Notes: generated by a model from the sequence alone, not told the origin. DNA of 40,620 nucleotides from Chloroflexota bacterium (GCA_034421255.1 DAOUKN010000210.1:1-40620), one strand, 5' to 3'; shown: positions 6,628 through 19,181, numbered from the stretch's first letter. Translations and numbers: made by a program.

Positions 6628-6674
6628 AACGCGCGACGGACCGAAGTCTTTCGAGTCGCCGCGGCGCCGGTCGG

Positions 6675-7784: not shown

Positions 7785-8870
7785 TCAGACCTCCACCGGG
7801 GGATAGACCCCGGCATGGCGGATGTCGTAGGCGCCCGGGTAGCGCACCTGCAACTGGCCGTCCTCGATCATGGCCTCGAGCGGCGAACGGCGGGTCGCGA
7901 GCGGCAGCGTGACGCGTGAGCGCGTGCGCGCGGATTCGTAGATGGCCATGAGGGCCTCGTGCGACGGCTGGGTGCGCGCGATGGACTGCACGTGCTCCGG
8001 TCCGCCGTCAATCCAGGTGGCCAGCTTGTCGACCTGGGCGACCCAGGGATCGACCTCCGGGAACTCCGTCGAGGCGAGATCCATCTCGCCGTGGGCGGAC
8101 GACGTCAGATGCAGGTCGAAGGCCTCGCGGCCGTGCGCCGAGTGGGTGGAGATGCGGAGCACTCCTTCATCGCCCGCGAGCACGAAGCCCCAATTGCCGA
8201 TGGTGGGGTTGGCGCCGATGTCCACGTCGAGCACCAGGCGCGTGCCACCCTCGAAGGCGATGACGCCCCCGCAGAGGTCCTCGGCGGCCAGACCGCGTTC
8301 GTAGCGGTCGGTTTCGCGCTGCACCTGGCCCACGGCCCAGTCGACCGCCGGGTCGCCGAGCATGAAGCGAATGAGGTCGACGACGTGGGAGCCCTGGTTC
8401 AGCAAGCCGCCTTCCTGCACGCTCACGGTGCTGGCGAGAGGCCGCCCGATGGCGCCCTCGGCGATGAGCCGGCGCGCGTGGGCGAACTGGGGGATCTGCC
8501 GTCGCATGTGGCTGATGACGAGCTTGACGCCGTGCTCGTCGCAGGCCGCGGTCATGGCCTCGACGCTGCCCATGTCGGGCGCCATGGGCTTCTCGCAAAT
8601 GATGGCCTTGGGGCGGGCCTCGGCGGCGGCGATCACCATGGGCGCGTGGAATTGGCAGGGGGTGGCGACGCTGACGATGTCGAGCGTCTCGTGCTCCAGC
8701 ATGGCCTCGAGGCTGGTGTAGCGGTGGGGCACGTCGAAGGTGCGCCCAACTTCGTCCAGCAGCGCGGCGTCAAGGTCGGCGATGGCGACGAGGTCGGTCG
8801 TGTTGCTGCCGGTATAGGCGCCTGCGTGCCGGGTGCCGACGCCAAGCCCCACGATGCCGGCGCGATACAT
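7785..8870 (-). CDS. Gfo/Idh/MocA family NAD(P)-dependent oxidoreductase (tandem paralogue)
   Basis: MYRAGIVGLGVGTRHAGAYT...DLVAIADL, EKPMA. The C-terminal region is collinear with the downstream paralogue (EALMAIYES.R.R..V.LPL....SPL..MIE.G.L.VRYPG.YDIRH). There is a 3-nt gap to the next gene. Confidence 0.8.
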   Translation of the reverse strand: MYRAGIVGLGVGTRHAGAYTGSNTTDLVAIADLDAALLDEVGRTFDVPHRYTSLEAMLEHETLDIVSVATPCQFHAPMVIAAAEARPKAIICEKPMAPDMGSVEAMTAACDEHGVKLVISHMRRQIPQFAHARRLIAEGAIGRPLASTVSVQEGGLLNQGSHVVDLIRFMLGDPAVDWAVGQVQRETDRYERGLAAEDLCGGVIAFEGGTRLVLDVDIGANPTIGNWGFVLAGDEGVLRISTHSAHGREAFDLHLTSSAHGEMDLASTEFPEVDPWVAQVDKLATWIDGGPEHVQSIARTQPSHEALMAIYESARTRSRVTLPLATRRSPLEAMIEDGQLQVRYPGAYDIRHAGVYPPVEV

Positions 8871-11588: not shown

Positions 11589-14500
11589 TCAGCCGGTCTC
11601 GCAGTAGGGCAGACCAAGCTCGACTAGATCACTGTCCGGCACCTCGCGCAACCCCGCGGGAACGCACCCGGTGAATTGGTTGCTTCCGCCGAGATAGAGC
11701 CCGCGCAGATTGGTCAAGTGGCTTAGTTCCGGCGGGATCTCGCCGTGCAGCAGGTTCCCGTCGAGATACAGCCCTTGCAGGTTGGTCAGGCGGCCCAGCT
11801 CGGCTGGGATCGTTCCACGCAGTTGGTTGTCCCAGAGGGATAGCTGCACGAGGTTGGCAAGGCGACCCAGCTCGGCGGGAATCGATCCACTCAGTTGGTT
11901 GCCGGCGAGCGAAAGGCCCCCCAGGTTCGTGAGGCTGCCGAGCTCAGCGGGGATCGGGCCGGTTAGCCGGTTTAGGTCGAGATACAACGCTTCCAAGTTG
12001 GCGAGACGACCCAATGCGGGTGGAATCTCCCCATGCAACTGGTTCCCGGTGAGAAAAAGCCCTCCCAGGTTCGCAAGGTTGCCCAACTCGGCGGGGATGC
12101 GCCCGCCCAACTGGTTGTCGTTGAGGCCCAGCACTTGCAGCCTGGCGAGACCGCCCAGCGTGGCTGGGATTGTCCCGCGCAGGTGGTTGGCACCGAGAAT
12201 CAACACGCGGAGGTTGGTGAGATTCGGGAGGTCGGGCAAGAGCTCCCCATGCAGTTGATCGCTCATGTGGCCCAGTTCCGGCGGGATCGCGCCTCGCAAC
12301 TGGTTGTCGCTGAGGTCCAAGACTTCGAGGTTGCCGAGGCGGCCGAGGTCGGGTGGGATGGTTCCGGTCAACCGGTTCCGGTTGAGTTCGAGCGCCTGCA
12401 GATTGGAGAGGAGGCCAAGCTCTGGTGGGATGTTCCCGACGAGACCGTTCTCCCGGAGCTGCAACCCCGTGACCCGACCGGCGTCGTTGGTGGTGACCCC
12501 GTGCCATTCGTCGAGGGGCGCCTCGCTGAGCCAGTTGGTGCTGTCGGTCCAACTTGAACCGTCGCTGGCGTCGTAGAGCGCGACGAGGGCGGCCCTGTCG
12601 GCGGCGATTGCGAACTCGGCGCAGAACAATAGGCCGGCGTCGCGGAGGTCGCTGTTTGGCAAGAGCCGTAGCTCGTCGGGGATACATCCGACGAAGCGGT
12701 TGCCTCCGCCGAGATTCAGTTCGTTCAAGTGGTCAAGCCGACCCAGCGCGGCCGGAATCTTTCCGCTCAAGAGGTTATGCCGGAGCGACAGGTAGGTCAG
12801 CTTGGCGAGGTTCCCCAACTGGATCGGGATCGCCCCTGTGAGCTGATTGTCCGCGAGCCACAGCACCTCCAGGTTGGCCAGGCGCCCCAACTCGTGCGGA
12901 ATCGGCCCCGTGAGCTGGTTGGATCCGAGCCGGAGATCTTGCAGATTGGCGAGGCGCCCCAGGTCGGGCGGAATAGTCCCGCGCAGTTGGTTCTTCGAGA
13001 GTTCCAGAACCGCCAGTTGCGCAAGGTCGCCCAACTCGGACGGGAGCTCGCCCGAGAGTTCATTGCTTTGGAGGCGCAGGGCGGTTACCTGGCCATCGGA
13101 GTTCGTGGTTACACCGTGCCATTCGCCGATGGGAGCCTCGCCGAGCCAGTGGCGGCTGTTGGTCCAACTCGGACCGTTGGTGGCGTGGTAGAACGCGATC
13201 AGCGCGGCACGATCCTCGGCGCTTTCGCTGAGCCCGCAGGGCCACAGATCGAGATCTTGAAAGTCGTTGGCTTCGATGGCACGCACCGCGGTGGGAATGC
13301 ACCCAGTGAATTGGTTGCCGCCGCTGAGCCGCACGAAGCTCAGGTTGGGGATGCGGCCCAACTCGGACGGGATAGGCCCATGCAGCTGGTTCCCGTCGAG
13401 ACGCAGCCATTCCAGCTTGGTGAGATTGCCCAGCTGGGGCGGGATAGTTCCCTGCAGCCGGTTGTTGCTGAGCTTCAAGGTCCTTAGCTGGGTGAGACCG
13501 CCCAGCTCGGATGGAATTGGACCCTGTAACTGGTTCTGATCCAGCGACAGCCATTCCAGCTTGGTGAGTCGACCCAATTGGCGCGGAATCTCTCCGGTGA
13601 GTTGGTTGTCGCGGAGCCCAAGACTCGTCAGGTTGGCAAGGTGCCCTAGCTCCGACGGAATCTGCCCCGTGAGTCGATTCACATCGATGAAGAGGAGACG
13701 CAATCGGGAGAGGTTTCCCAAATCGGGTGGAATCTCCCCAGACAACCGGTTGTTTGCGAGGTCCAGCAATTCAAGTCTGGAGAGATTTCCCAGTTCGGGC
13801 GGGATGCTCTCGGCAAGCTGGTTGGAACCGAGCCAGAGCAAGACTAGGTTGGCGAGACCTCCCAGGTGGGGTGGAATGGCTTCGCTCAGCTGGTTGCTAT
13901 GGAGGGCCAGCGTCACGAGACTAGTCAAACCGCCGAGTTCCAATGGGATCGCCCCACTCAGGCGGTTTTCTTCAAGCGACAAATCCGTCAGCTTGGTGAG
14001 CTGACCCAGCTCGGCGGGGATGACGCCACTGAGTTGGTTGCGACCGAGGGTGAGGTTTCGCAGCTCGGTGAGACTCCCCAACTCCGGTGGAATCGTGCCC
14101 AGCAACTGGTTGCTGAAGAGATCCAACTCTCGCAGGTCGACCAGGCGGCCAAGCTCAGCCGGAATGCGGCCATGCAGACTGTTGAGGGAGAGACTCAGCA
14201 CCCTCAGGTTGGAGAGATCGCCGAGCTCCGGCGGCATCTGGCCGCGCAACCCGTTGTCGGAGAGGTCTAACACGGTGACTCGGCCAGCGCCGTCGGTGGT
14301 GACGCCGTGCCACTCGCCGACGGGCGCGTCGCTGAGCCAGTTGGTGTTGGTGGTCCAGGTCGGCCCGTCGGTGGCGTGGAAGAGCGCGACGAGGGCAGTT
14401 TTTTCAGCATGGGCCGTCGCGTCCGCGCAGAACGGCACGTCGAGCTCGGTGAGGTCGATGTATGCGACAGCCTGCAGCCGGTCGGGAATGCAGCCCGCGA

Positions 14501-17057
14501 TCTGATTCTCTCCGAGACGAAGCGACTCCAGGTTGCGGAGGCTGCCGAGTTCGGGTGGGATTTCTCCTCTGAGCTGGTTGGCGTCAAGGTGCAAGGCCTT
14601 CAGATTGGTGAGCTGCGACAACTCGACCGGGATACTCCCCAGCAGCGCGTTCTGGCTCAGACGCAGGGATTCCAGAATGTCCAAGTGGCCCAACGCGGGC
14701 GGAATGGTCCCGCTCAGCCGGTTGGCGCCGAGGTGCAAGACCCGCAGATTCGTGAGGCTTGCCAACTCGACCGGGATGTTCCCTCGCAGCGCGTTGTGAC
14801 TCAGATTCAGGGTTTCCAAGGCAGCGAGGTTCTCCAACGCGGATGGGATCGGCCCGCCCAGCTCGTTGCCGCTGAGGTCCAGCACTTCCAGGCTGGTGAG
14901 ATGGCCCAGCGTGGTTGGAATGGTCCCGCGCAACTGGTTGCCACCGAGATTCAACACCTGGAGCTTGGCAAGACTGGGCAGGCCGGGTGCAACCTCTCCA
15001 CTCGGCTGGTCGCCCGCGAGCGCCGGCCGGTCCGAGATGAGGAGCCGGCCCAGTTCCGGCGGGATCGCCCCTCGCAACTGATTGGCGCTGAGGTCCAGGA
15101 CCTCCAGATTGCCCAGTCGGCCGAGGGCGGGCGGGATGATTCCGGCGAGACCGTTCTCCCGGAGCTGCAGCCCCGTGACCCGGCCGGTGGAGTCGAGGGT
15201 GACGCCGTGCCATGCGCCGAGGTGAGCATCGCTCATCCAGTTCGTGCTGTTTTTCCAGTTCGCCCCATTGGTCGCGTGGTAGAGGGCGACCAGCGCGGTG
15301 CGATCGACGGCGGCGGTTTCGGGGCAAAACGGCAGCTCAAGCCAGGCGAGGTCGCTCTGCGGCACGTTTTCCAACGGCGCGGGGATGCACCCGGTGAGCT
15401 GGTTGCTCCCGGCAAGCCACAGCGCCTGCAGATTGGAGAGATTGGCCAGCTCGGGCGGTATGGGCCCTTGCAGCTGGTTGCCGGAGAGGATCAGCTGTTC
15501 CAGGTTGGCGAGCCCGGCCAGCTCAGGCGGTATGGCGCCCTGCAGTTGATTGTCGTTGAGATAGAGCGATTGCAGATTGAACAGGCGGCCGAGCTCGGGC
15601 GGGATCTCCCCCTGCAACTGGTTTCCGGAGATCCAGAGCGACTCGAGGTGGCTGAGGCGGCCCAACTCGGGCGGGAGCTGCCCGCTCAACTGGTTGTTGC
15701 TGAGTTCCAGCCATACCAGATTGGGAAGGCTTCCCAATTCAGGCGGTATGGGTCCGCTGAGCTGGTTTCCGCCCAGTCCCAGCGACGTCAGGTTGACGAG
15801 GCGGCCCAGCTCGGGCGGGATCTGCCCGTGGAGGTGATTCTCGCCGAGGATCAAGCGATCGAGGTTTGTGAGGCGACTCAACCTGGGCGGGATCTCTCCA
15901 GTCAGCCCGTTTTCCCCGAGCCACAAGGCCGTGACGCGTCCACTCTCGTCGGTGTTGACCCCATACCACTTGTCAAGGGACGCCTCGCTGAGCCATCCAC
16001 TGCTATTGATCCAGTTCGGTCCGTCGGTGGTGCGGTAGAGCGCGACCAGCGCGGCCCTGTCCGTGGCGGCTGAGGGCGTCACAGCCGCGTCGGGATCGGC
16101 GGCGCAGAGAGCCAGCCCGAGCTCGTCGAGATCATTGATCGCGACGTCCCACAACTCAGCCGGGATGCATCCGGTGAATTGGTCGTTGCCGCCGAGCTGC
16201 AGCACCTCCAGGTTGGCGAGGCGGACCAACTCGGCGGGGATCGTTCCGGTGAGCAGGTTTTGGTGCAGCTGGAGCTCGCTCAGGTGCTCCAGGCGTCCCA
16301 ATTCAGCGGGGATCGCGCCGGTCAACTGGTTGTGGTCGAGGAGGAGCCGGCGCAGGTTGGCAAGACGACCCAACTCGGGCGGGATCGCGCCGCTCAGCTG
16401 ATTCCCCGAAAGCGCGAGCGTTTCCAGCTCGGAGAGGTCGCCCAGCTCGGACGGTAATGCGCCGGTCAACTGGTTGGCATCGAGTTGGAGCGCGCGCAGG
16501 TTGGCGAGACGGCCCAGCTCCGGCGGGATCACCCCGCGCAATCGGTTCGCGGAGAGGTTTAGCCCTCGGAGGTTCGCCAGGCGCCCGAGATCGGCCGGGA
16601 GTTCACCAACCAATTGGTTTGCCCGGAGCGACAGTTGGCTCAGACTGGTGAGACTGCCCAGTTCGGCGGGGATGGTCCCACTCAGCTGGTTATCGCCGAG
16701 CCCCAAGACGGTCAGGTTGGCCAGCCGGCCCAGCTCGGGCGGCAGCTCCCCGCTGAGCCGGTTGCTGTTGAGCCAGAGCTGTTGCAGGCCGGCCAGACGC
16801 CCGAGCTCGGATGGCAGCGCTCCGCCCAATTGGTTTCCGCTAAGGTCGGCCACGCGCAGGTTGGCCAAACTGCCGAGCGCGGGCGGGAGTTCGCCAACCA
16901 ATCCGTTTTCGGCGAGGCGGAGCTCCGTGACTTGCCCCTGGACGTCCGTGGTGACGCCGTGCCACTCGCCGAGCGGCGCCTCGCTGAGCCAGTTGGTATT
17001 GGCGGTCCAGTTCGCGCCGTCAGTCGCCTGGTAGAGCGCGACCAGCGCATCCCGATC
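11589..17057 (-). repeat. Coding tandem repeats: 72-nt LRR units organised in six supermodules
   Basis: Module starts, counted by hand from the protein, are aa 34, 366, 618, 918, 1315 and 1520. These correspond to nt 17057, 16061, 15305, 14405, 13214 and 12599. Repeat counts per module are 11, 8, 10, 14, 6 and 11, plus one truncated unit. Confidence 0.85.
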
Positions 17058-17156
17058 AGTCGAGGGCGTTTGCGCTGAAGCCGTCGTCGGCGCTCGGCCC
17101 GTCGCGGCGAACGCGGCAACGAGCATAAGCGTCAAGGCGACGGCGCGAACGGTCAC
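11589..17156 (-). CDS. Giant secreted leucine-rich-repeat protein: six concatenated plant-type LRR modules (about 60 LRRs)
   Basis: 1855-aa ORF. GTG start with AGGAGG 8 nt upstream and a signal-like N-terminus, MTVRAVALTLMLVAAFAATG. There are six modules. Each has an N-cap DRAALVALYxATxGxxW..NWLSxAPLxEWHGVTT....GRVTxLxL. Each then has 6-14 repeats of the 24-aa unit LxxLxxLxLxxNxLxGxIPxELGx. Each ends in a C-cap GGNQFTGCIP-x-C. Confidence 0.9.
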   Translation of the reverse strand: MTVRAVALTLMLVAAFAATGRAPTTASAQTPSTDRDALVALYQATDGANWTANTNWLSEAPLGEWHGVTTDVQGQVTELRLAENGLVGELPPALGSLANLRVADLSGNQLGGALPSELGRLAGLQQLWLNSNRLSGELPPELGRLANLTVLGLGDNQLSGTIPAELGSLTSLSQLSLRANQLVGELPADLGRLANLRGLNLSANRLRGVIPPELGRLANLRALQLDANQLTGALPSELGDLSELETLALSGNQLSGAIPPELGRLANLRRLLLDHNQLTGAIPAELGRLEHLSELQLHQNLLTGTIPAELVRLANLEVLQLGGNDQFTGCIPAELWDVAINDLDELGLALCAADPDAAVTPSAATDRAALVALYRTTDGPNWINSSGWLSEASLDKWYGVNTDESGRVTALWLGENGLTGEIPPRLSRLTNLDRLILGENHLHGQIPPELGRLVNLTSLGLGGNQLSGPIPPELGSLPNLVWLELSNNQLSGQLPPELGRLSHLESLWISGNQLQGEIPPELGRLFNLQSLYLNDNQLQGAIPPELAGLANLEQLILSGNQLQGPIPPELANLSNLQALWLAGSNQLTGCIPAPLENVPQSDLAWLELPFCPETAAVDRTALVALYHATNGANWKNSTNWMSDAHLGAWHGVTLDSTGRVTGLQLRENGLAGIIPPALGRLGNLEVLDLSANQLRGAIPPELGRLLISDRPALAGDQPSGEVAPGLPSLAKLQVLNLGGNQLRGTIPTTLGHLTSLEVLDLSGNELGGPIPSALENLAALETLNLSHNALRGNIPVELASLTNLRVLHLGANRLSGTIPPALGHLDILESLRLSQNALLGSIPVELSQLTNLKALHLDANQLRGEIPPELGSLRNLESLRLGENQIAGCIPDRLQAVAYIDLTELDVPFCADATAHAEKTALVALFHATDGPTWTTNTNWLSDAPVGEWHGVTTDGAGRVTVLDLSDNGLRGQMPPELGDLSNLRVLSLSLNSLHGRIPAELGRLVDLRELDLFSNQLLGTIPPELGSLTELRNLTLGRNQLSGVIPAELGQLTKLTDLSLEENRLSGAIPLELGGLTSLVTLALHSNQLSEAIPPHLGGLANLVLLWLGSNQLAESIPPELGNLSRLELLDLANNRLSGEIPPDLGNLSRLRLLFIDVNRLTGQIPSELGHLANLTSLGLRDNQLTGEIPRQLGRLTKLEWLSLDQNQLQGPIPSELGGLTQLRTLKLSNNRLQGTIPPQLGNLTKLEWLRLDGNQLHGPIPSELGRIPNLSFVRLSGGNQFTGCIPTAVRAIEANDFQDLDLWPCGLSESAEDRAALIAFYHATNGPSWTNSRHWLGEAPIGEWHGVTTNSDGQVTALRLQSNELSGELPSELGDLAQLAVLELSKNQLRGTIPPDLGRLANLQDLRLGSNQLTGPIPHELGRLANLEVLWLADNQLTGAIPIQLGNLAKLTYLSLRHNLLSGKIPAALGRLDHLNELNLGGGNRFVGCIPDELRLLPNSDLRDAGLLFCAEFAIAADRAALVALYDASDGSSWTDSTNWLSEAPLDEWHGVTTNDAGRVTGLQLRENGLVGNIPPELGLLSNLQALELNRNRLTGTIPPDLGRLGNLEVLDLSDNQLRGAIPPELGHMSDQLHGELLPDLPNLTNLRVLILGANHLRGTIPATLGGLARLQVLGLNDNQLGGRIPAELGNLANLGGLFLTGNQLHGEIPPALGRLANLEALYLDLNRLTGPIPAELGSLTNLGGLSLAGNQLSGSIPAELGRLANLVQLSLWDNQLRGTIPAELGRLTNLQGLYLDGNLLHGEIPPELSHLTNLRGLYLGGSNQFTGCVPAGLREVPDSDLVELGLPYCETG

Positions 17157-17163
17157 TGGCGCT

Positions 17164-17178
17164 GCCTCCTAAGGAGGC
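17164..17178 (-). promoter_or_regulatory. Inverted repeat covering the Shine-Dalgarno of the giant LRR gene
   Basis: The + strand reads gcctcct-a-aggaggc, i.e. 7-nt arms. On the mRNA this is GCCUCCUUAGGAGGC followed by agcgcca-GUG. The 5' arm is an anti-SD mimic that could pair with the SD, e.g. a 5-bp stem GCCUC/GAGGC with loop CUUAG. Confidence 0.35.
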
Positions 17179-17196
17179 GGTGTCCTGGAGCTTTAC

Positions 17197-17222
17197 CCAT
17201 GCTTGAGCCGCGGCAAGCATGG
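17197..17222 (-). terminator. Hairpin between the DUF4352 ORF and the giant LRR gene
   Basis: ccatgcttg-agccgcgg-caagcatgg: a 9-bp perfect stem with an 8-nt loop. No U-tract follows on the minus strand, so terminator function is uncertain. Confidence 0.3.
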
Positions 17223-17312
17223 CCGAAGCCCTGGCGCGGGGCAACCGTGGACGGGGTGGCTCTGGATTGGCCCCGGAGGCAGCCCGCGACCTGGGATTGA
17301 GTCAGAGCGTGC

Positions 17313-17762
17313 TTAGGGGTTGGGTACCTCGAAGCGGAAGCCCTCGATGTCGATTTCGAGGTCAACCAAACCCGGGTCGATGTCAAACACCACGGCCACC
17401 GTGGCTGTCTCTCCGCCTGGCACGGCCTCGACCAGGAACAGCGGCCGACCCTCCGCTTCCTGCGAGGCCATGCCGAGAAGCCCATTGACGCCGGGCGAGT
17501 CCACGGCAATTTCGTTGCCACCCGGCTCGATGAGCACGATGTTGGCCTTGGAAACGACGATGTTGCCGCTGTCGTTGGTGTTGGTGAACGCGATGGTCAC
17601 GACCAGGTACAAGCCATTCTTGGGCCGGTACGGTGAGCCGCGAACCTGCGCCAGCTGCTCGAACCGCTGCACCGAAACCAGCGTCAAGTTGAACCCACGT
17701 GATGTGAATAGGGTGTCGCCTACCGTGGGAAGGAAGGTGCGCCATTCGGCGCGTTCCGCCAC
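17313..17762 (-). CDS. DUF4352-like beta-sandwich domain protein, no signal peptide (possibly a detached domain)
   Basis: 149 aa. NLTLVSVQRFEQL....GLYLVVTIAFTNTNDSGNIVVSKANIVLIEPGGNEIAV.....VPGGETATVAVVFDIDPG fits the DUF4352 pattern. The GTG start has no obvious SD. It is in the same frame as the upstream LRR ORF (see findings). Confidence 0.5.
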   Translation of the reverse strand: MAERAEWRTFLPTVGDTLFTSRGFNLTLVSVQRFEQLAQVRGSPYRPKNGLYLVVTIAFTNTNDSGNIVVSKANIVLIEPGGNEIAVDSPGVNGLLGMASQEAEGRPLFLVEAVPGGETATVAVVFDIDPGLVDLEIDIEGFRFEVPNP

Positions 17763-17828
17763 GGCTTCAGCCGTGGCCTCAGCCGAAGCCTCGGCCTAGG
17801 TCTCGGCCTCCGCCTCCTCCTCGCTGGT

Positions 17829-19181
17829 CTAGCAGATTGGCAGGCCGAGAGCCTGGGCGTCGTGTGGCAGAAGGTCCTCCCAGTTTGCGGGAATGCACCC
17901 CGTGAATTGATTGCCCCCGCTGAGCGACAGCCATCTCAGATCGGCAAGGCCGCCAAGCTCGGAAGGGATTTCTCCGCTCAGCCGGTTGTTACTGAGCGTG
18001 AGTGACTGCAATTTGGAGAGGCGGCCCAACTCGGGTGGGATCGCCCCTTCCAGCAGGTTCTTCTGCAGGTGCAACACCTGCAGATCGGCGAGGCTGCCGA
18101 GCTCGGCAGGGATGGCGCCGCTCAGTTGATTCTCGAAGAGAGCCAGCGCCAGCAAGTTGGAGAGGTTGCCCAGTTCGGGTGGGATCGCGCCGGTGAGCTG
18201 ATTCGCAAAGAGCCACAGAGTCCGCAGATTGCCGAGGTCTCCAAGCTCCGGGGGTATCTGGCCGCTCAACTGATTGTCGCTGAGCACCAGCGATGCCAGT
18301 TTGGAAAGGTGGCCGAGCTCCGACGGTATCGTCCCGGCGAGCTGGTTCTTGTTGAGCAGGAGCTCATCCAAGCTGGAAAGGCTGCCCAACTCCGGAGGAA
18401 TCCCCCCATCGAGCGCATTCCGGGCCAGCCACAGCTTCTTCAGGCTGGAGAGGTTGCTCAACTCCGACGGGATGTCCCCGCTGAGCTGGTTCGCGTGCAA
18501 GTGCAACACTTCCAGGTTTGAGAGACGTCCAAGCTCGGCGGGTATCGGTCCGCTGAGTTCGTTGCCATTGAGCAGCAGCTCGACAAGATTGGCGAGGCGG
18601 CCCAGTTCGGCTGGGATCGTGCCGCTGAGTTGATTGTCCTTGAGCCGCAGTTGTTCAAGCTCGACCAAGCTGCCGAGCTCGGGTGGCAATACGCCGCGCA
18701 ACTGGTTGTTACTGAGCCACAGCGCCGTGACCCGGCCGGCCGCGTTCGTCCTGACGCCCAACCATTTCGCGATCGGCTCCTGACTGAGCCAGTCGCGGTT
18801 GTTCTTCCAGTTGGCGCCGTCGGTGGCCTGGTAGAGGGCGACCAGCGCGGCCCTGTCATTGGCATCGACCGGCGACGGCGTCTGGGCCGGCGTCGGCAGC
18901 GTGGTTGCGACGGGCGTCGGCGTCGCCGTCGGAACTTCGGTCGGCGTCGGCGTATGAGTAGGCGCAGGAGTCTGGGTCGGCGCGGCTGAAGCGGTCGGCG
19001 TTGCGGCCTTGTCAGGCGGTGGGGTTGGCGTGGGCGTGTGGTCTGCCGGCCCGGGCGGCTCGACCGTGGCAGTCGCCGGTGCCGGCTCCGCCGTGGCAGG
19101 CGGTTTGGCAGGTTCGTCGCACCTGGCCGCCATGAGCGCAATTGTGACCACGACTACAAGCGCGGCGGCCCGGATGGTCAC
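17829..19181 (-). CDS. Secreted single-module plant-type LRR protein with Pro/Thr-rich linker
   Basis: The ORF track starts it at 19271. In-frame GTG 19181 (GGAG 7 nt upstream) gives MTIRAAALVVVVTIALMAA. This parallels the giant paralogue's N-terminus, and both share the ccaGTGACC start context. Then come a PT-rich linker, the N-cap NDRAALVALYQATDGANWKNNRDWLSQEPIAKWLGVRT..GRVTALWL, 12 LRRs and the C-cap GGNQFTGCIP...LPIC. Confidence 0.85.
   Translation of the reverse strand: MTIRAAALVVVVTIALMAARCDEPAKPPATAEPAPATATVEPPGPADHTPTPTPPPDKAATPTASAAPTQTPAPTHTPTPTEVPTATPTPVATTLPTPAQTPSPVDANDRAALVALYQATDGANWKNNRDWLSQEPIAKWLGVRTNAAGRVTALWLSNNQLRGVLPPELGSLVELEQLRLKDNQLSGTIPAELGRLANLVELLLNGNELSGPIPAELGRLSNLEVLHLHANQLSGDIPSELSNLSSLKKLWLARNALDGGIPPELGSLSSLDELLLNKNQLAGTIPSELGHLSKLASLVLSDNQLSGQIPPELGDLGNLRTLWLFANQLTGAIPPELGNLSNLLALALFENQLSGAIPAELGSLADLQVLHLQKNLLEGAIPPELGRLSKLQSLTLSNNRLSGEIPSELGGLADLRWLSLSGGNQFTGCIPANWEDLLPHDAQALGLPIC

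What the first reader, a model, noticed from the sequence alone, without database searches (positions are those of the whole stretch)
11589..17156. 1855-aa secreted protein assembled from six complete, capped plant-type LRR ectodomain modules
Hand residue counting gives a signal-like N-terminus followed by six modules. They span aa 34-365, 366-617, 618-917, 918-1314, 1315-1519 and 1520-1855.

Each module repeats the same three-part architecture:
- An N-cap: DRAALVALYxATxGxxW-x5-NWLSxAPLxEWHGVTT-x4-GRVTxLxL.
- 6-14 strict 24-residue units LxxLxxLxLxxNxLxGxIPxELGx. Counts are 11, 8, 10, 14, 6 and 11, about 60 in total.
- A C-cap GGNQFTGCIP with an invariant Cys-x20-Cys pair: C330/C351, C590/C611, C889/C910, C1286/C1307, C1491/C1512 and C1831/C1852.

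The 24-residue unit with GxIP, and the cap layout, are those of the plant-specific LRR class (the LRRNT_2-type cap of plant receptor kinases). They are not the short Yop/internalin-type bacterial LRRs.

A single-module paralogue (17829-19181) lies just upstream and shares the same start context, ccaGTGACC / MT[VI]RA.

Six full capped ectodomains strung in one polypeptide is an unusual architecture. By inference it could be a multivalent eukaryote-like adhesin or decoy of a host-associated bacterium.
Basis: partly seen in the sequence, partly recalled or inferred. Interest (0 to 1): 0.7.

Follow-up and report, generated by a model that had tools for sequence, protein, structure and literature searches.

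The report
Secreted six-module bacterial LRR protein
A Chloroflexota bacterium whose close relatives occur in a marine sponge encodes a secreted protein made of six separately capped, plant-receptor-like leucine-rich-repeat modules, but thousands of similar multi-module proteins exist in bacteria, so it is an ordinary member of a large, little-studied family.

Summary
ORF 11589-17156(-) encodes 1855 aa: a Sec-type signal peptide, then six modules. Each module has a Cys-free N-cap, 6-14 units of a 24-residue plant-specific-type LRR, and a C-cap with a Cys-x20-Cys pair. The protein has exactly 12 Cys, all at the stated positions.

Sequence and predicted fold match plant receptor-kinase ectodomains best (PEPR1, FLS2, SERK/BIR). 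The caps are not plant caps. Pfam LRRNT_2 is not matched. The N-cap profile hits only Bacteroides 4ECN/4ECO and, weakly, Pfam LRR_10. The C-cap tail matches nothing known.

The architecture is not unusual. An N-cap profile finds 20,024 protein clusters, 1,334 of them at E<=1e-30. The best 150 carry 3-20 N-caps, and 62 of them carry six or more.

The contig comes from a Chloroflexota MAG. A relative with 91% identical CysS comes from the sponge Petrosia ficiformis. In five close relatives the same folB-SBP slot holds different LRR gene sets, with whole-module indels. Orthologues with the same termini have 3 and about 5 modules. One relative has no multi-module gene there.

Most likely this is a secreted multivalent binding protein of the "eukaryotic-like protein" repertoire. 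Its ligand is unknown. It is a new member of a known kind.

The parts
11589..17156 (-). Gene for the 1855-aa secreted six-module LRR protein (stop codon included)
   Evidence: ORF list and translation. Pfam matches only LRR families.
17165..17170 (-). Shine-Dalgarno sequence AGGAGG, 8 nt upstream of the GTG start
   Evidence: Sequence read. Orthologues in L001, L080 and L083 start at the equivalent M/V-T-[VL]-R-A.
17073..17156 (-). Predicted Sec signal peptide, aa 1-28, with cleavage after A-S-A
   Evidence: Hydrophobicity profile and AxA motif. Conserved in orthologues. Inferred only; no SignalP run was possible.
16062..17057 (-). Module 1 (aa 34-365): N-cap, 11 LRRs, C-cap C330/C351
   Evidence: Orthologous at 81-88% identity in L001 and L083.
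15306..16061 (-). Module 2 (aa 366-617): N-cap, 8 LRRs, C-cap C590/C611
14406..15305 (-). Module 3 (aa 618-917): N-cap, 10 LRRs including one degenerate unit (aa 705-728), C-cap C889/C910. The 300-residue stretch aa 612-911, one whole module in length, is absent from the L001 orthologue
   Evidence: Clean 300-aa indel.
13215..14405 (-). Module 4 (aa 918-1314): N-cap, 14 LRRs, C-cap C1286/C1307
12600..13214 (-). Module 5 (aa 1315-1519): N-cap, 6 LRRs, C-cap C1491/C1512; similar in size to a SERK or BIR ectodomain
   Evidence: AF2 pLDDT 95.4, pTM 0.91. Foldseek target-normalised TM-score (TMt) 0.76-0.84 to SERK, BIR and BAK1 ectodomains.
11592..12599 (-). Module 6 (aa 1520-1855): N-cap, 11 LRRs plus a 15-residue partial unit (aa 1631-1645, predicted disordered), C-cap C1831/C1852. 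The protein ends 3 residues after the last Cys
   Evidence: The C-terminal 175 aa are 85% identical to the L080 orthologue.
17829..19181 (-). Single-module paralogue (450 aa): signal-like N-terminus, Pro/Thr-rich linker, one capped module of 12 LRRs
17313..17762 (-). DUF4352-like domain, in frame with the paralogue but cut off from it by two TAG stops (17829-17831 and 17796-17798). It is the intact C-terminal domain of the 662-aa and 653-aa proteins of relatives

Best explanation
The gene encodes a Sec-exported protein with no recognisable anchor. It consists of six independently folded LRR solenoids joined by short linkers.

Each solenoid has three parts:
- A Cys-free helical N-cap of a bacterial type.
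- 6-14 plant-specific-class LRRs.
- A terminal LRR whose GxIP glycine-flanking position is Cys. This Cys is probably disulfide-bonded to a second Cys 20 residues later, closing the hydrophobic core.

The protein probably works as a multivalent extracellular binding protein. The concave beta-sheets of the modules would bind protein or peptide ligands.

The organism is a Chloroflexota lineage with a close relative from a marine sponge. The protein therefore most likely belongs to the 'eukaryotic-like protein' repertoire that sponge symbionts are proposed to use to adhere to, or interfere with recognition by, host cells. Binding to other cells or to particles is also possible.

The locus evolves by gain and loss of whole modules at the conserved cap boundaries. 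Close relatives therefore carry different module sets.

Shown: the anatomy, the LRR class, the fold prediction, the size of the family, the taxon and the locus variability. Inferred: secretion, the disulfide, ligand binding and the host-related role.
For: Anatomy and register.

Export and domain content:
- SD sequence and signal-like N-terminus.
- No other Pfam domain and no C-terminal anchor; the protein ends at ...PYCETG.

LRR class and fold:
- The best PDB sequence hits are plant LRR-RK ectodomains.
- AF2 of module 5 gives pLDDT 95.4, with two strands per repeat.
- The 50 best Foldseek hits are all plant LRR ectodomain proteins.
- The tandem model of modules 5+6 has high pLDDT (91.9) but lower pTM (0.69). 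This fits two well-defined modules whose mutual orientation is uncertain.

Cysteines: all 12 Cys of the protein sit at the two C-cap positions. The same pattern recurs across homologues.

Family context: homologues fuse the same modules to proteases, Big_2, FN3, cadherin, PPC and T9SS sorting domains, that is, extracellular contexts.

Taxon: the CysS, ClpC and RadA clusters are named Chloroflexota. The best 80 genome loci are almost all Chloroflexota MAGs. Cluster member LXNJ01 is from the Petrosia ficiformis metagenome.

Literature: LRR proteins are listed among sponge-symbiont ELPs, including in Caldilineae and SAR202 Chloroflexi (PMC6306507; PMC3909097).

Locus variability.

Rate of change: dN is 0.11, against 0.006-0.048 for ClpC, RadA and CysS.
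Against: - No ligand, expression data or localisation data exist.
- No signal-peptide predictor was run.
- The disulfide could not be measured, because model coordinates are not exposed.
- The window's own sample of origin is unknown. Host association rests on one relative from one sponge metagenome.
- The family is very large (20,024 clusters) and includes proteins annotated from Imperialibacter sp., a genus I believe to be free-living. The modules are therefore not specific to symbionts.
- dN/dS at concave-face variable positions (0.39) is barely above that at convex variable positions (0.31), and both are below 1. One orthologue pair gives no sign of diversifying selection on the presumed binding face.
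Confidence: 0.6

Rival explanations
1. General extracellular binding or adhesion protein unrelated to any host. The modules would capture particles, polymers or other microbes for a free-living or biofilm lifestyle. The sponge link would be incidental.
For: - The family is huge and spans several phyla.
- Homologues carry peptidase (PF13582, PF13583, PF13688, PF00082, PF00089), PPC and T9SS sorting domains.
- One multi-module homologue is annotated from Imperialibacter sp..
- The neighbouring genes are sugar-related: a solute-binding protein, GFO/IDH/MocA oxidoreductases and a rhamnosidase.
Against: - The closest genome hits are concentrated in Chloroflexota MAGs.
- One close relative is from a sponge metagenome.
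- The gene is convergent with the sugar-uptake genes rather than co-oriented with them.
Confidence: 0.25
2. A recently transferred plant or algal receptor ectodomain: the modules would be eukaryotic genes captured by the bacterium.
For: - The best sequence and fold matches are plant LRR-RK ectodomains, at 30-41% identity to SERK and BAK1.
- GC content of the gene (0.625-0.66) is a few points below its flanks (about 0.69).
- HGT of PS-LRRs between plants and bacteria has been proposed (Miyashita et al. 2013, Nat Sci 5:580). Its existence is confirmed through citations. I recall its content from memory.
Against: - The N-cap lacks the plant Cys pair and does not match LRRNT_2. It matches bacterial LRR_10 and 4ECN/4ECO instead.
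- The C-cap is not of plant type.
- The family is large and diversified in bacteria.
- The modules of this one protein are already 38-50% diverged from each other.
- The GC dip is small, and the Leu/Asn-rich composition could explain it.
Confidence: 0.05
3. Assembly artefact: the six-module count results from mis-joining or expansion of repeats in a short-read metagenome assembly.
For: - The window is a 40.6-kb metagenomic contig.
- Module 3 is not found in any of the relatives examined.
- The exact protein is not on record in the protein collection, although other proteins of the same contig are.
Against: - Modules share at most about 25-nt exact words and 50-62% protein identity.
- The reading frame is intact through all junctions.
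- Modules 1-2 and 4-5 are colinear with orthologues in independent assemblies.
- Whole-module indels are seen in several independent assemblies, including a 3.19-Mb contig.
Confidence: 0.05
4. Type III-secreted effector of the Xanthomonas XopAC, XopAE or XopL kind, or an internalin-type invasin.
For: NCBIfam gives sub-threshold hits: XopAC 409 bits (cut-off 450), XopAE 400.5 (600), XopL 202 (500), InlA 211 (1600).
Against: - All scores are below the curated cut-offs and come from summing 7-12 LRR stretches.
- There is no Fic, XL-box, inter-repeat Ig-like, LPXTG or GW domain.
- The Sec-type signal peptide does not fit type III secretion.
- Chloroflexota are not known to have type III secretion systems (my own knowledge).
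Confidence: 0.02

Closest known systems
Plant LRR receptor-kinase and co-receptor ectodomains (PEPR1, FLS2, MIK2, SERK1/2, BAK1, BIR2/3) and PGIP
   Same: - 24-residue plant-specific LRR unit with GxIP and LG.
- Two strands per repeat in the model.
- Extracellular location.
- A helical N-cap ending in W-x-G-V followed by the first LRR.
- Module 5 is about the size of a SERK or BIR ectodomain: TMt 0.76-0.84 and 30-41% identity.
   Different: - No transmembrane segment or kinase.
- The N-cap has no Cys pair and fails Pfam LRRNT_2.
- The C-cap is Cys-x20-Cys with the first Cys inside the last GxIP, not the plant LCGxPLxxC type.
- Six ectodomain-like units sit in one chain.
Bacteroides LRR proteins 4ECN and 4ECO, and Pfam LRR_10 (PF18805)
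   Same: They are the only solved structures hit by the N-cap profile. The motif AL-x-A(L/I)(Y/W)-x-A-x-G-x-NW ... NW ... W ... GV ... GRVT-x-L-x-L is shared.
   Different: - The matches are weak: E 0.005 and 0.19, and 13-20 bits against a cut-off of 30.
- The Bacteroides caps carry insertions.
- I did not compare their LRR class or C-termini.
Multi-module capped LRR proteins of uncultured bacteria (for example P0001 with 20 N-caps, P0002 with 16, P0004 with 10, P0023 with 7)
   Same: The same N-cap, the same PS-type units and the same GNxFxGCxP...C C-cap, repeated in tandem in one chain at 38-45% identity over 91-99% of the query.
   Different: - Many are longer.
- Many carry extra domains (proteases, Big_2, FN3, PPC, T9SS signals).
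- Some use a second C-cap type, GTGLCAP...C.
Eukaryotic-like proteins (ELPs) of sponge symbionts
   Same: A secreted repeat protein of a eukaryote-typical class in a lineage found in a sponge. LRR genes are reported in sponge Caldilineae and SAR202 Chloroflexi and in Poribacteria (PMC6306507, PMC3909097).
   Different: - Those two papers treat LRR genes by presence or Pfam count. The passages I read do not describe the capped-module architecture.
- As cited in those papers, experimental support (modulation of amoebal phagocytosis) exists for ankyrin proteins, not for this LRR type.
Xanthomonas XopAC, XopAE and XopL, and Leptospira LIC LRR proteins
   Same: Bacterial proteins with eukaryote-like LRRs that give sub-threshold profile hits.
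   Different: They are below the curated cut-offs, they use other secretion routes and effector domains, and they lack the capped tandem modules.

Membership tests
Plant-specific (PS) LRR class | 24-residue unit with consensus LxxLxxLxLxxNxLxGxIPxxLGx | tested here: met
   54 units: L1 48/54, L4 47, L7 52, L9 52, N12 53, L14 53, G16 52, I18 45, P19 53, L22 54, G23 45.
Plant-specific (PS) LRR class | Closest sequences and folds are plant extracellular LRR domains; an extra strand on the convex side of each repeat | tested here: met
   PDB phmmer: the top 40 are all plant ectodomains. AF2 DSSP shows two strands per repeat. The Foldseek top 50 are all plant. The structure is a prediction, not an experiment.
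Plant-specific (PS) LRR class | Restricted to plant extracellular proteins (the original 1998 definition, as quoted in PMC2244805) | tested here: not met
   The source is a Chloroflexota MAG. The restriction was already challenged by Miyashita et al. 2013 (citation seen).
Pfam LRRNT_2 (PF08263), the plant LRR N-terminal cap | Profile match at or above the gathering score | tested here: not met
   No hit for the whole protein at E<=0.01. No hit for the seven isolated N-caps at E<=10.
Pfam LRRNT_2 (PF08263), the plant LRR N-terminal cap | Conserved Cys pair in C-x-W-x-G-V-x-C | tested here: not met
   No Cys occurs in any N-cap; all 12 Cys are in C-caps. Some homologues (P0005, P0100) do have the Cys pair and a precomputed PF08263 hit.
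Pfam LRRNT_2 (PF08263), the plant LRR N-terminal cap | Layout: amphipathic helix, loop, W-x-G-V strand leading into the first LRR | tested here: met
   Helix at residues 2-11 and strands at 35-37 and 43-47 in the model. WYGVNTD aligns with WFGITCD of PEPR1.
Pfam LRR_10 (PF18805), the 4ECN/4ECO-type bacterial cap | Profile match at or above the gathering score (30 bits) | tested here: inconclusive
   It is the best Pfam match for six of the seven N-caps and the only one for those six (module 1's cap scores a spurious Adhesin_Dr hit slightly higher). Scores are 12.6-19.8 bits, and several cover profile positions 10-67 of 67. The N-cap profile hits only 4ECN (E 0.005) and 4ECO (E 0.19) in the PDB.
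Plant LRR-RK C-terminal cap | Closely spaced Cys pair after the last LRR (LCGxPLxxC type; my own knowledge) | tested here: not met
   The spacing is Cys-x20-Cys, with the first Cys inside GCIP. The C-cap profile matches PDB chains almost entirely through its LRR part (best stretches end at profile positions 21-28 for nearly all chains, 35-36 for the ERL chains); no Pfam cap family is hit.
XopAC, XopAE and XopL type III effectors (NCBIfam) | Score at or above the curated cut-off | tested here: not met
   409 against 450, 400.5 against 600, and 201.9 against 500. No effector domain.
Class 1 internalins (NCBIfam InlA, InlH) | Score at or above the curated cut-off; 22-residue LRRs with an Ig-like inter-repeat region and a wall anchor | tested here: not met
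   211 against 1600 and 162 against 1050. The units are 24 residues. No other domains are present.
Sponge-symbiont eukaryotic-like proteins (an operational class) | Eukaryote-typical repeat domain in a secreted or surface protein | tested here: met
Sponge-symbiont eukaryotic-like proteins (an operational class) | Encoded by a sponge symbiont | tested here: inconclusive
   The window's sample is unknown. A relative with 91.4% identical CysS is from the Petrosia ficiformis metagenome, LXNJ01.
Sponge-symbiont eukaryotic-like proteins (an operational class) | Enriched in symbionts relative to free-living relatives; affects host phagocytosis or adhesion | not testable with these tools

The most novel reading that the evidence does not exclude
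The folB-SBP slot may be a strain-variable cassette locus. Whole capped LRR modules would be inserted, deleted and exchanged at their conserved cap boundaries. Each strain of this sponge-associated Chloroflexota lineage would then have its own combination of receptor-like binding modules. This would be a bacterial, germline counterpart of combinatorial LRR receptor diversification (plant RLPs, lamprey VLRs), used to match variable host or microbial ligands. A linked possibility is that the Cys-free bacterial capped module, rather than a plant gene, is the older form of the PS-LRR ectodomain.
Probability: 0.12. Interest if true: 0.7.

Novelty: new member of a known kind. Interest (0 to 1): 0.3.

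Why it matters
Plant-type LRR modules in bacteria and LRR 'eukaryotic-like proteins' in sponge symbionts are both on record, so the gene itself changes little.

Three points are of modest use:
1. The unit of this large family is a self-contained capped module: a bacterial Cys-free N-cap, PS-type LRRs and a Cys-x20-Cys C-cap. Pfam does not model it. There is no C-cap family, and the N-cap is only weakly covered by LRR_10. Annotation therefore reduces these proteins to anonymous LRR counts.
2. The family is very large: 20,024 clusters at 50% identity.
3. In one lineage the locus differs between close relatives by whole modules. This makes it a tractable case for asking whether symbiont LRR repertoires track hosts.

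A defined module also gives experimenters a natural construct, for example the 205-residue module 5, for binding studies.

Tried and rejected
- Exact look-up of the 1855-aa protein, and a contig look-up of the window's own CysS, found nothing. The source sample of the window could not be identified.
- Cluster look-up of ten NCBI-sourced giant homologues returned no names. Their organisms and habitats stay unknown.
- Paper searches for MAG and assembly accessions (OY, OZ, OX, JAPPNP, JAJECS, DAOUHO, GCA_965243625) found nothing. Only LXNJ00000000 could be tied to a habitat.
- Aligning 120 giant homologues failed on size. The 75-sequence alignment was not usable in Python. I counted caps with regular expressions on the stored sequences instead.
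- Diversifying selection on the concave face: dN/dS is 0.39 (concave x positions), 0.31 (convex x positions) and 0.10 (scaffold) for one orthologue pair. This gives no evidence of positive selection.
- XopAC, XopAE, XopL, LIC11051 and internalin assignments were rejected because they fall below the curated cut-offs.
- The 122-aa ORF 17153-17521 has no Pfam hit and lies in a different frame from the real remnant domain. I treat it as spurious.
- The Miyashita et al. 2013 paper on PS-LRRs in bacteria is not in the library. Only its citation could be confirmed.

Full report
OBSERVATION

The minus-strand ORF 11589-17156 encodes 1855 aa from a GTG start. An AGGAGG Shine-Dalgarno sequence lies 8 nt upstream of that start. 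Residues 1-28 (MTVRAVALTLMLVAAFAATGRAPTTASA) have a basic n-region, a hydrophobic core and an A-S-A motif before Q29. This is a Sec-type signal by inspection; no predictor was available.

N-caps begin at aa 34, 366, 618, 918, 1315 and 1520.

Cutting each module in a 24-residue register gives 54 full units plus six cap-embedded final units. That is 11, 8, 10, 14, 6 and 11 per module. The consensus is L(A/T)NLxxLxLxxNQLxGxIPPELG(R), with near-invariant scaffold positions.

There are two blemishes. Module 3 has a degenerate unit (aa 705-728). Module 6 has a 15-residue partial unit (aa 1631-1645), which is predicted to be disordered.

The single-module paralogue at 17829-19181 and the shared gccaGTGACC start context are also real.

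IS IT AN ASSEMBLY ARTEFACT?

Probably not. The modules are 50-62% identical in protein and share exact DNA words of no more than about 25 nt.

Independent assemblies of close relatives support the arrangement:
- L001 is colinear over aa 1-611 and 912-1480 at 81% identity.
- L083 is colinear over aa 32-611 at 88% identity.
- L080 matches the last 175 aa at 85% identity.

Module 3 is the one part seen only in the window.

WHAT CLASS OF LRR?

Pfam sees only LRR families. NCBIfam gives only sub-threshold hits to XopAC, XopAE, XopL, LIC11051 and internalins.

A phmmer search of the PDB with module 2 returns plant LRR receptor-kinase or receptor-like-protein ectodomains for the best 40 hits. PEPR1 scores 7.8e-148, followed by GSO1, MIK2, RGI, FLS2, HAESA, ERL, TDR and BRI1. 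The first bacterial protein, Leptospira LIC11098, scores 2e-56.

AlphaFold2 on module 5, using the seven window modules as the alignment, gives pLDDT 95.4 and pTM 0.91, with two strands per repeat. Foldseek against the PDB returns only plant LRR ectodomain proteins in the top 50. The small SERK, BAK1 and BIR ectodomains are covered almost end to end: target-normalised TM-score (TMt) 0.76-0.84 and 30-41% identity.

THE CAPS ARE NOT THE PLANT CAPS

LRRNT_2 is not matched by the whole protein or by the isolated N-caps, even at E<=10. Six of the seven caps are matched only by LRR_10 (PF18805), at 12.6-19.8 bits against a cut-off of 30.

A profile of the seven N-caps hits only two PDB entries, the Bacteroides LRR proteins 4ECN (E 0.005) and 4ECO (E 0.19).

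The layout (helix, loop, W-x-G-V strand) resembles LRRNT_2, and WYGVNTD aligns on WFGITCD of PEPR1. But the plant Cys pair is absent. Some distant homologues (P0005, P0100) do carry it, together with a precomputed PF08263 hit. The two cap types may therefore be linked through intermediates.

The C-cap is the last LRR with a one-residue insertion and Cys in place of the x of GxIP. It is followed by about 20 residues (xxLxxVxxxDLxxLGLPxC). Its profile matches PDB chains almost entirely through the LRR part, and it matches no Pfam cap family. The Cys-x20-Cys disulfide is an inference from invariance and extracellular location.

HOW UNUSUAL IS THE ARCHITECTURE?

It is not unusual.
- The full-length search saturated at 7,989 of 8,000 scored candidates with E<=1e-10. 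Many of these are 2,000-3,200 aa long.
- Inspection shows the same capped modules in tandem. P0001 has 20 N-caps, P0002 has 16, P0004 has 10 and P0023 has 7.
- Of the top 120 hits, 100 have two or more N-caps and 57 have six or more.
- An N-cap profile scored against 1.84 billion cluster representatives finds 20,024 proteins at E<=1e-3, 8,580 at E<=1e-10 and 1,334 at E<=1e-30.
- The best 150 of those carry 3-20 N-caps, and 62 carry six or more.

In a sample not biased by size the picture is more modest. Among 77 genome loci chosen for similarity to a single module, the counts are 38 genes with one module, 15 with two, 14 with three, 6 with four, 1 with five and none with six or more. In the remaining 3 the N-cap pattern found nothing. 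Six modules is thus in the upper tail for Chloroflexota genes, but it is far from unique.

A second C-cap type (GTGLCAP...C) is as common in the family as the type seen here.

SOURCE AND CONTEXT

The window is a whole 40,620-bp contig. Its CysS, ClpC, RadA and rhamnosidase belong to 90% clusters that NCBI names Chloroflexi or Chloroflexota bacterium.

The neighbourhood is chromosomal housekeeping: S1, clpC, radA, ispD, ispF, cysS, spoU and folB. The two LRR genes follow. Beyond them lie a convergent solute-binding-protein gene, two GFO/IDH/MocA oxidoreductases, LppM and a rhamnosidase.

The scan of one genome per species found at least 567 confirmed loci. Its best 80 are almost all Dehalococcoidia, Caldilineaceae or unclassified Chloroflexota MAGs, plus one Gemmatimonadota MAG.

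One member of the CysS cluster (91.4% identical) lies on LXNJ01. This is the Petrosia ficiformis sponge metagenome of Horn et al. 2016.

LRR genes are reported among the 'eukaryotic-like proteins' of sponge-associated Caldilineae and SAR202 Chloroflexi and of Poribacteria. Those two papers treat LRR genes by presence or Pfam count, not by architecture (PMC6306507; PMC3909097).

THE LOCUS IS HYPERVARIABLE

The slot lies between folB and the solute-binding-protein (SBP) gene. In five relatives with 91-96% identical CysS it holds different gene sets:

| Source | Genes in the slot |
|---|---|
| Window | 450 aa (one module) + 1855 aa (six modules) |
| L001 | 662 aa + 791 aa (each an N-terminal roughly 270-aa domain plus one module) + a 1564-aa orthologue with about five modules |
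| L083 | 440 aa + 937 aa + a 1705-aa orthologue |
| L080 (P. ficiformis) | a single 909-aa orthologue with three modules |
| L079 (3.19-Mb contig) | 653 aa + 572 aa; no multi-module gene |
| L082 | 815 aa only |

Details of the orthologues:
- The L001 orthologue lacks exactly 300 residues (aa 612-911), one whole module in length.
- The five-module count for L001 is an estimate. Only 1180 of its 1564 aa were read; the rest is inferred from length.
- The L083 orthologue has an extra module between the signal peptide and module 1, and different distal modules.
- The L080 orthologue keeps the same MTVRA start and ...CETG end as the window protein.

The indels are whole modules with breakpoints at the caps. 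This fits recombination between the conserved cap sequences.

The LRR gene changes faster than its neighbours. Against L001, dN is 0.11 with dN/dS 0.20-0.27. For ClpC, RadA and CysS, dN is 0.006-0.048 with dN/dS 0.03-0.16. Concave-face variable positions (0.39) are not clearly different from convex ones (0.31). Positive selection on the binding face is therefore not shown.

MECHANISM

Shown: the gene structure, the caps, the LRR class, a confident fold prediction, the absence of any other domain or anchor, the size of the family, the taxon and the module-level variability.

Inferred:
- Sec export.
- One disulfide per C-cap.
- Independent folding of each module. The tandem model of modules 5+6 has pLDDT 91.9 but pTM only 0.69, and a continuous helix joins the C-cap tail to the next N-cap.
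- Ligand binding on the concave sheets.

My best reading is a released, multivalent binding protein belonging to the eukaryotic-like repertoire of a sponge-associated Chloroflexota lineage. The main rival is a generic extracellular binding or adhesion role with no host connection.

Recent transfer from plants, an assembly artefact and membership of the type III effector or internalin families are each unlikely, for the reasons given under the rivals.

VERDICT

The description is accurate, and the repeat class is correctly identified. The claim of plant-type caps is only half right.

This is a new member of a known kind, with modest interest. The points worth keeping are the uncurated cap-defined module and the strain-level module turnover at this locus.

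Noticed in passing
window 17313-17831 (-): The single-module paralogue ends at a TAG (17829-17831). A second in-frame TAG follows 11 codons later (17796-17798). After that comes an intact 149-aa DUF4352-like ORF in the same frame (PF11611, 20.4 bits, below threshold). In relatives (L001 662 aa, L079 653 aa) the LRR module, an acidic linker and this domain form one protein. The window copy therefore looks nonsense-split or is a young pseudogene. Both interrupting stops are amber.
   Followed up: partly
L001 12897-21404; L079 12919-16920; L080 12669-15398; L082 12878-15325; L083 12927-21404: The slot between folB and the solute-binding-protein gene holds a different set of LRR genes in each of five close relatives (CysS 91-96% identical). 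The differences are whole-module insertions and deletions in the orthologue of the 1855-aa gene.
   Followed up: yes
window 14973-15044 and 12222-12266 (-): Module 3 has one degenerate LRR (LLISDRPALAGDQPSGEVAPGLPS). Module 6 has a 15-residue partial unit (MSDQLHGELLPDLPN) at the equivalent place, after the second or third LRR. In the tandem model the module 6 segment has pLDDT below 50. These are small loop-outs that recall plant 'island' regions.
   Followed up: partly
L001 12897-13700 and 15227-16030; L082 12878-; L083 14403-: Several LRR proteins of relatives start with a conserved Cys-containing domain of about 270 aa (…CEGIALDDGCLFTITGGDT…NYYNTLDVLANRYPD…). It has no Pfam match and is absent from the window's two LRR genes.
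   Followed up: no
P0008, P0009, P0012, P0043 and others: Many family members close their modules with a different C-cap, …GTGLCAP(x about 25-30)C, instead of GNxFxGCxP(x20)C. Some proteins mix both types.
   Followed up: partly
window 12001-18000: GC content of the LRR gene (0.625-0.66) is 3-6 points below that of the flanking housekeeping genes (about 0.69-0.70). I did not resolve whether this reflects the Leu/Asn-rich composition or a foreign origin.
   Followed up: no
window 11589-17156: The exact 1855-aa sequence is not in the 15-billion-protein collection, although CysS, ClpC, RadA and the rhamnosidase of the same 40,620-bp contig are. The depositor's annotation may use another start or may treat the gene differently.
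   Followed up: partly
L080 19677-21374; L082 19597-21294; compare window 6628-6674: Two relatives carry a GmrSD-type (PF03235/PF07510) restriction gene between the second GFO/IDH/MocA gene and LppM. The window has only 47 bp there.
   Followed up: no
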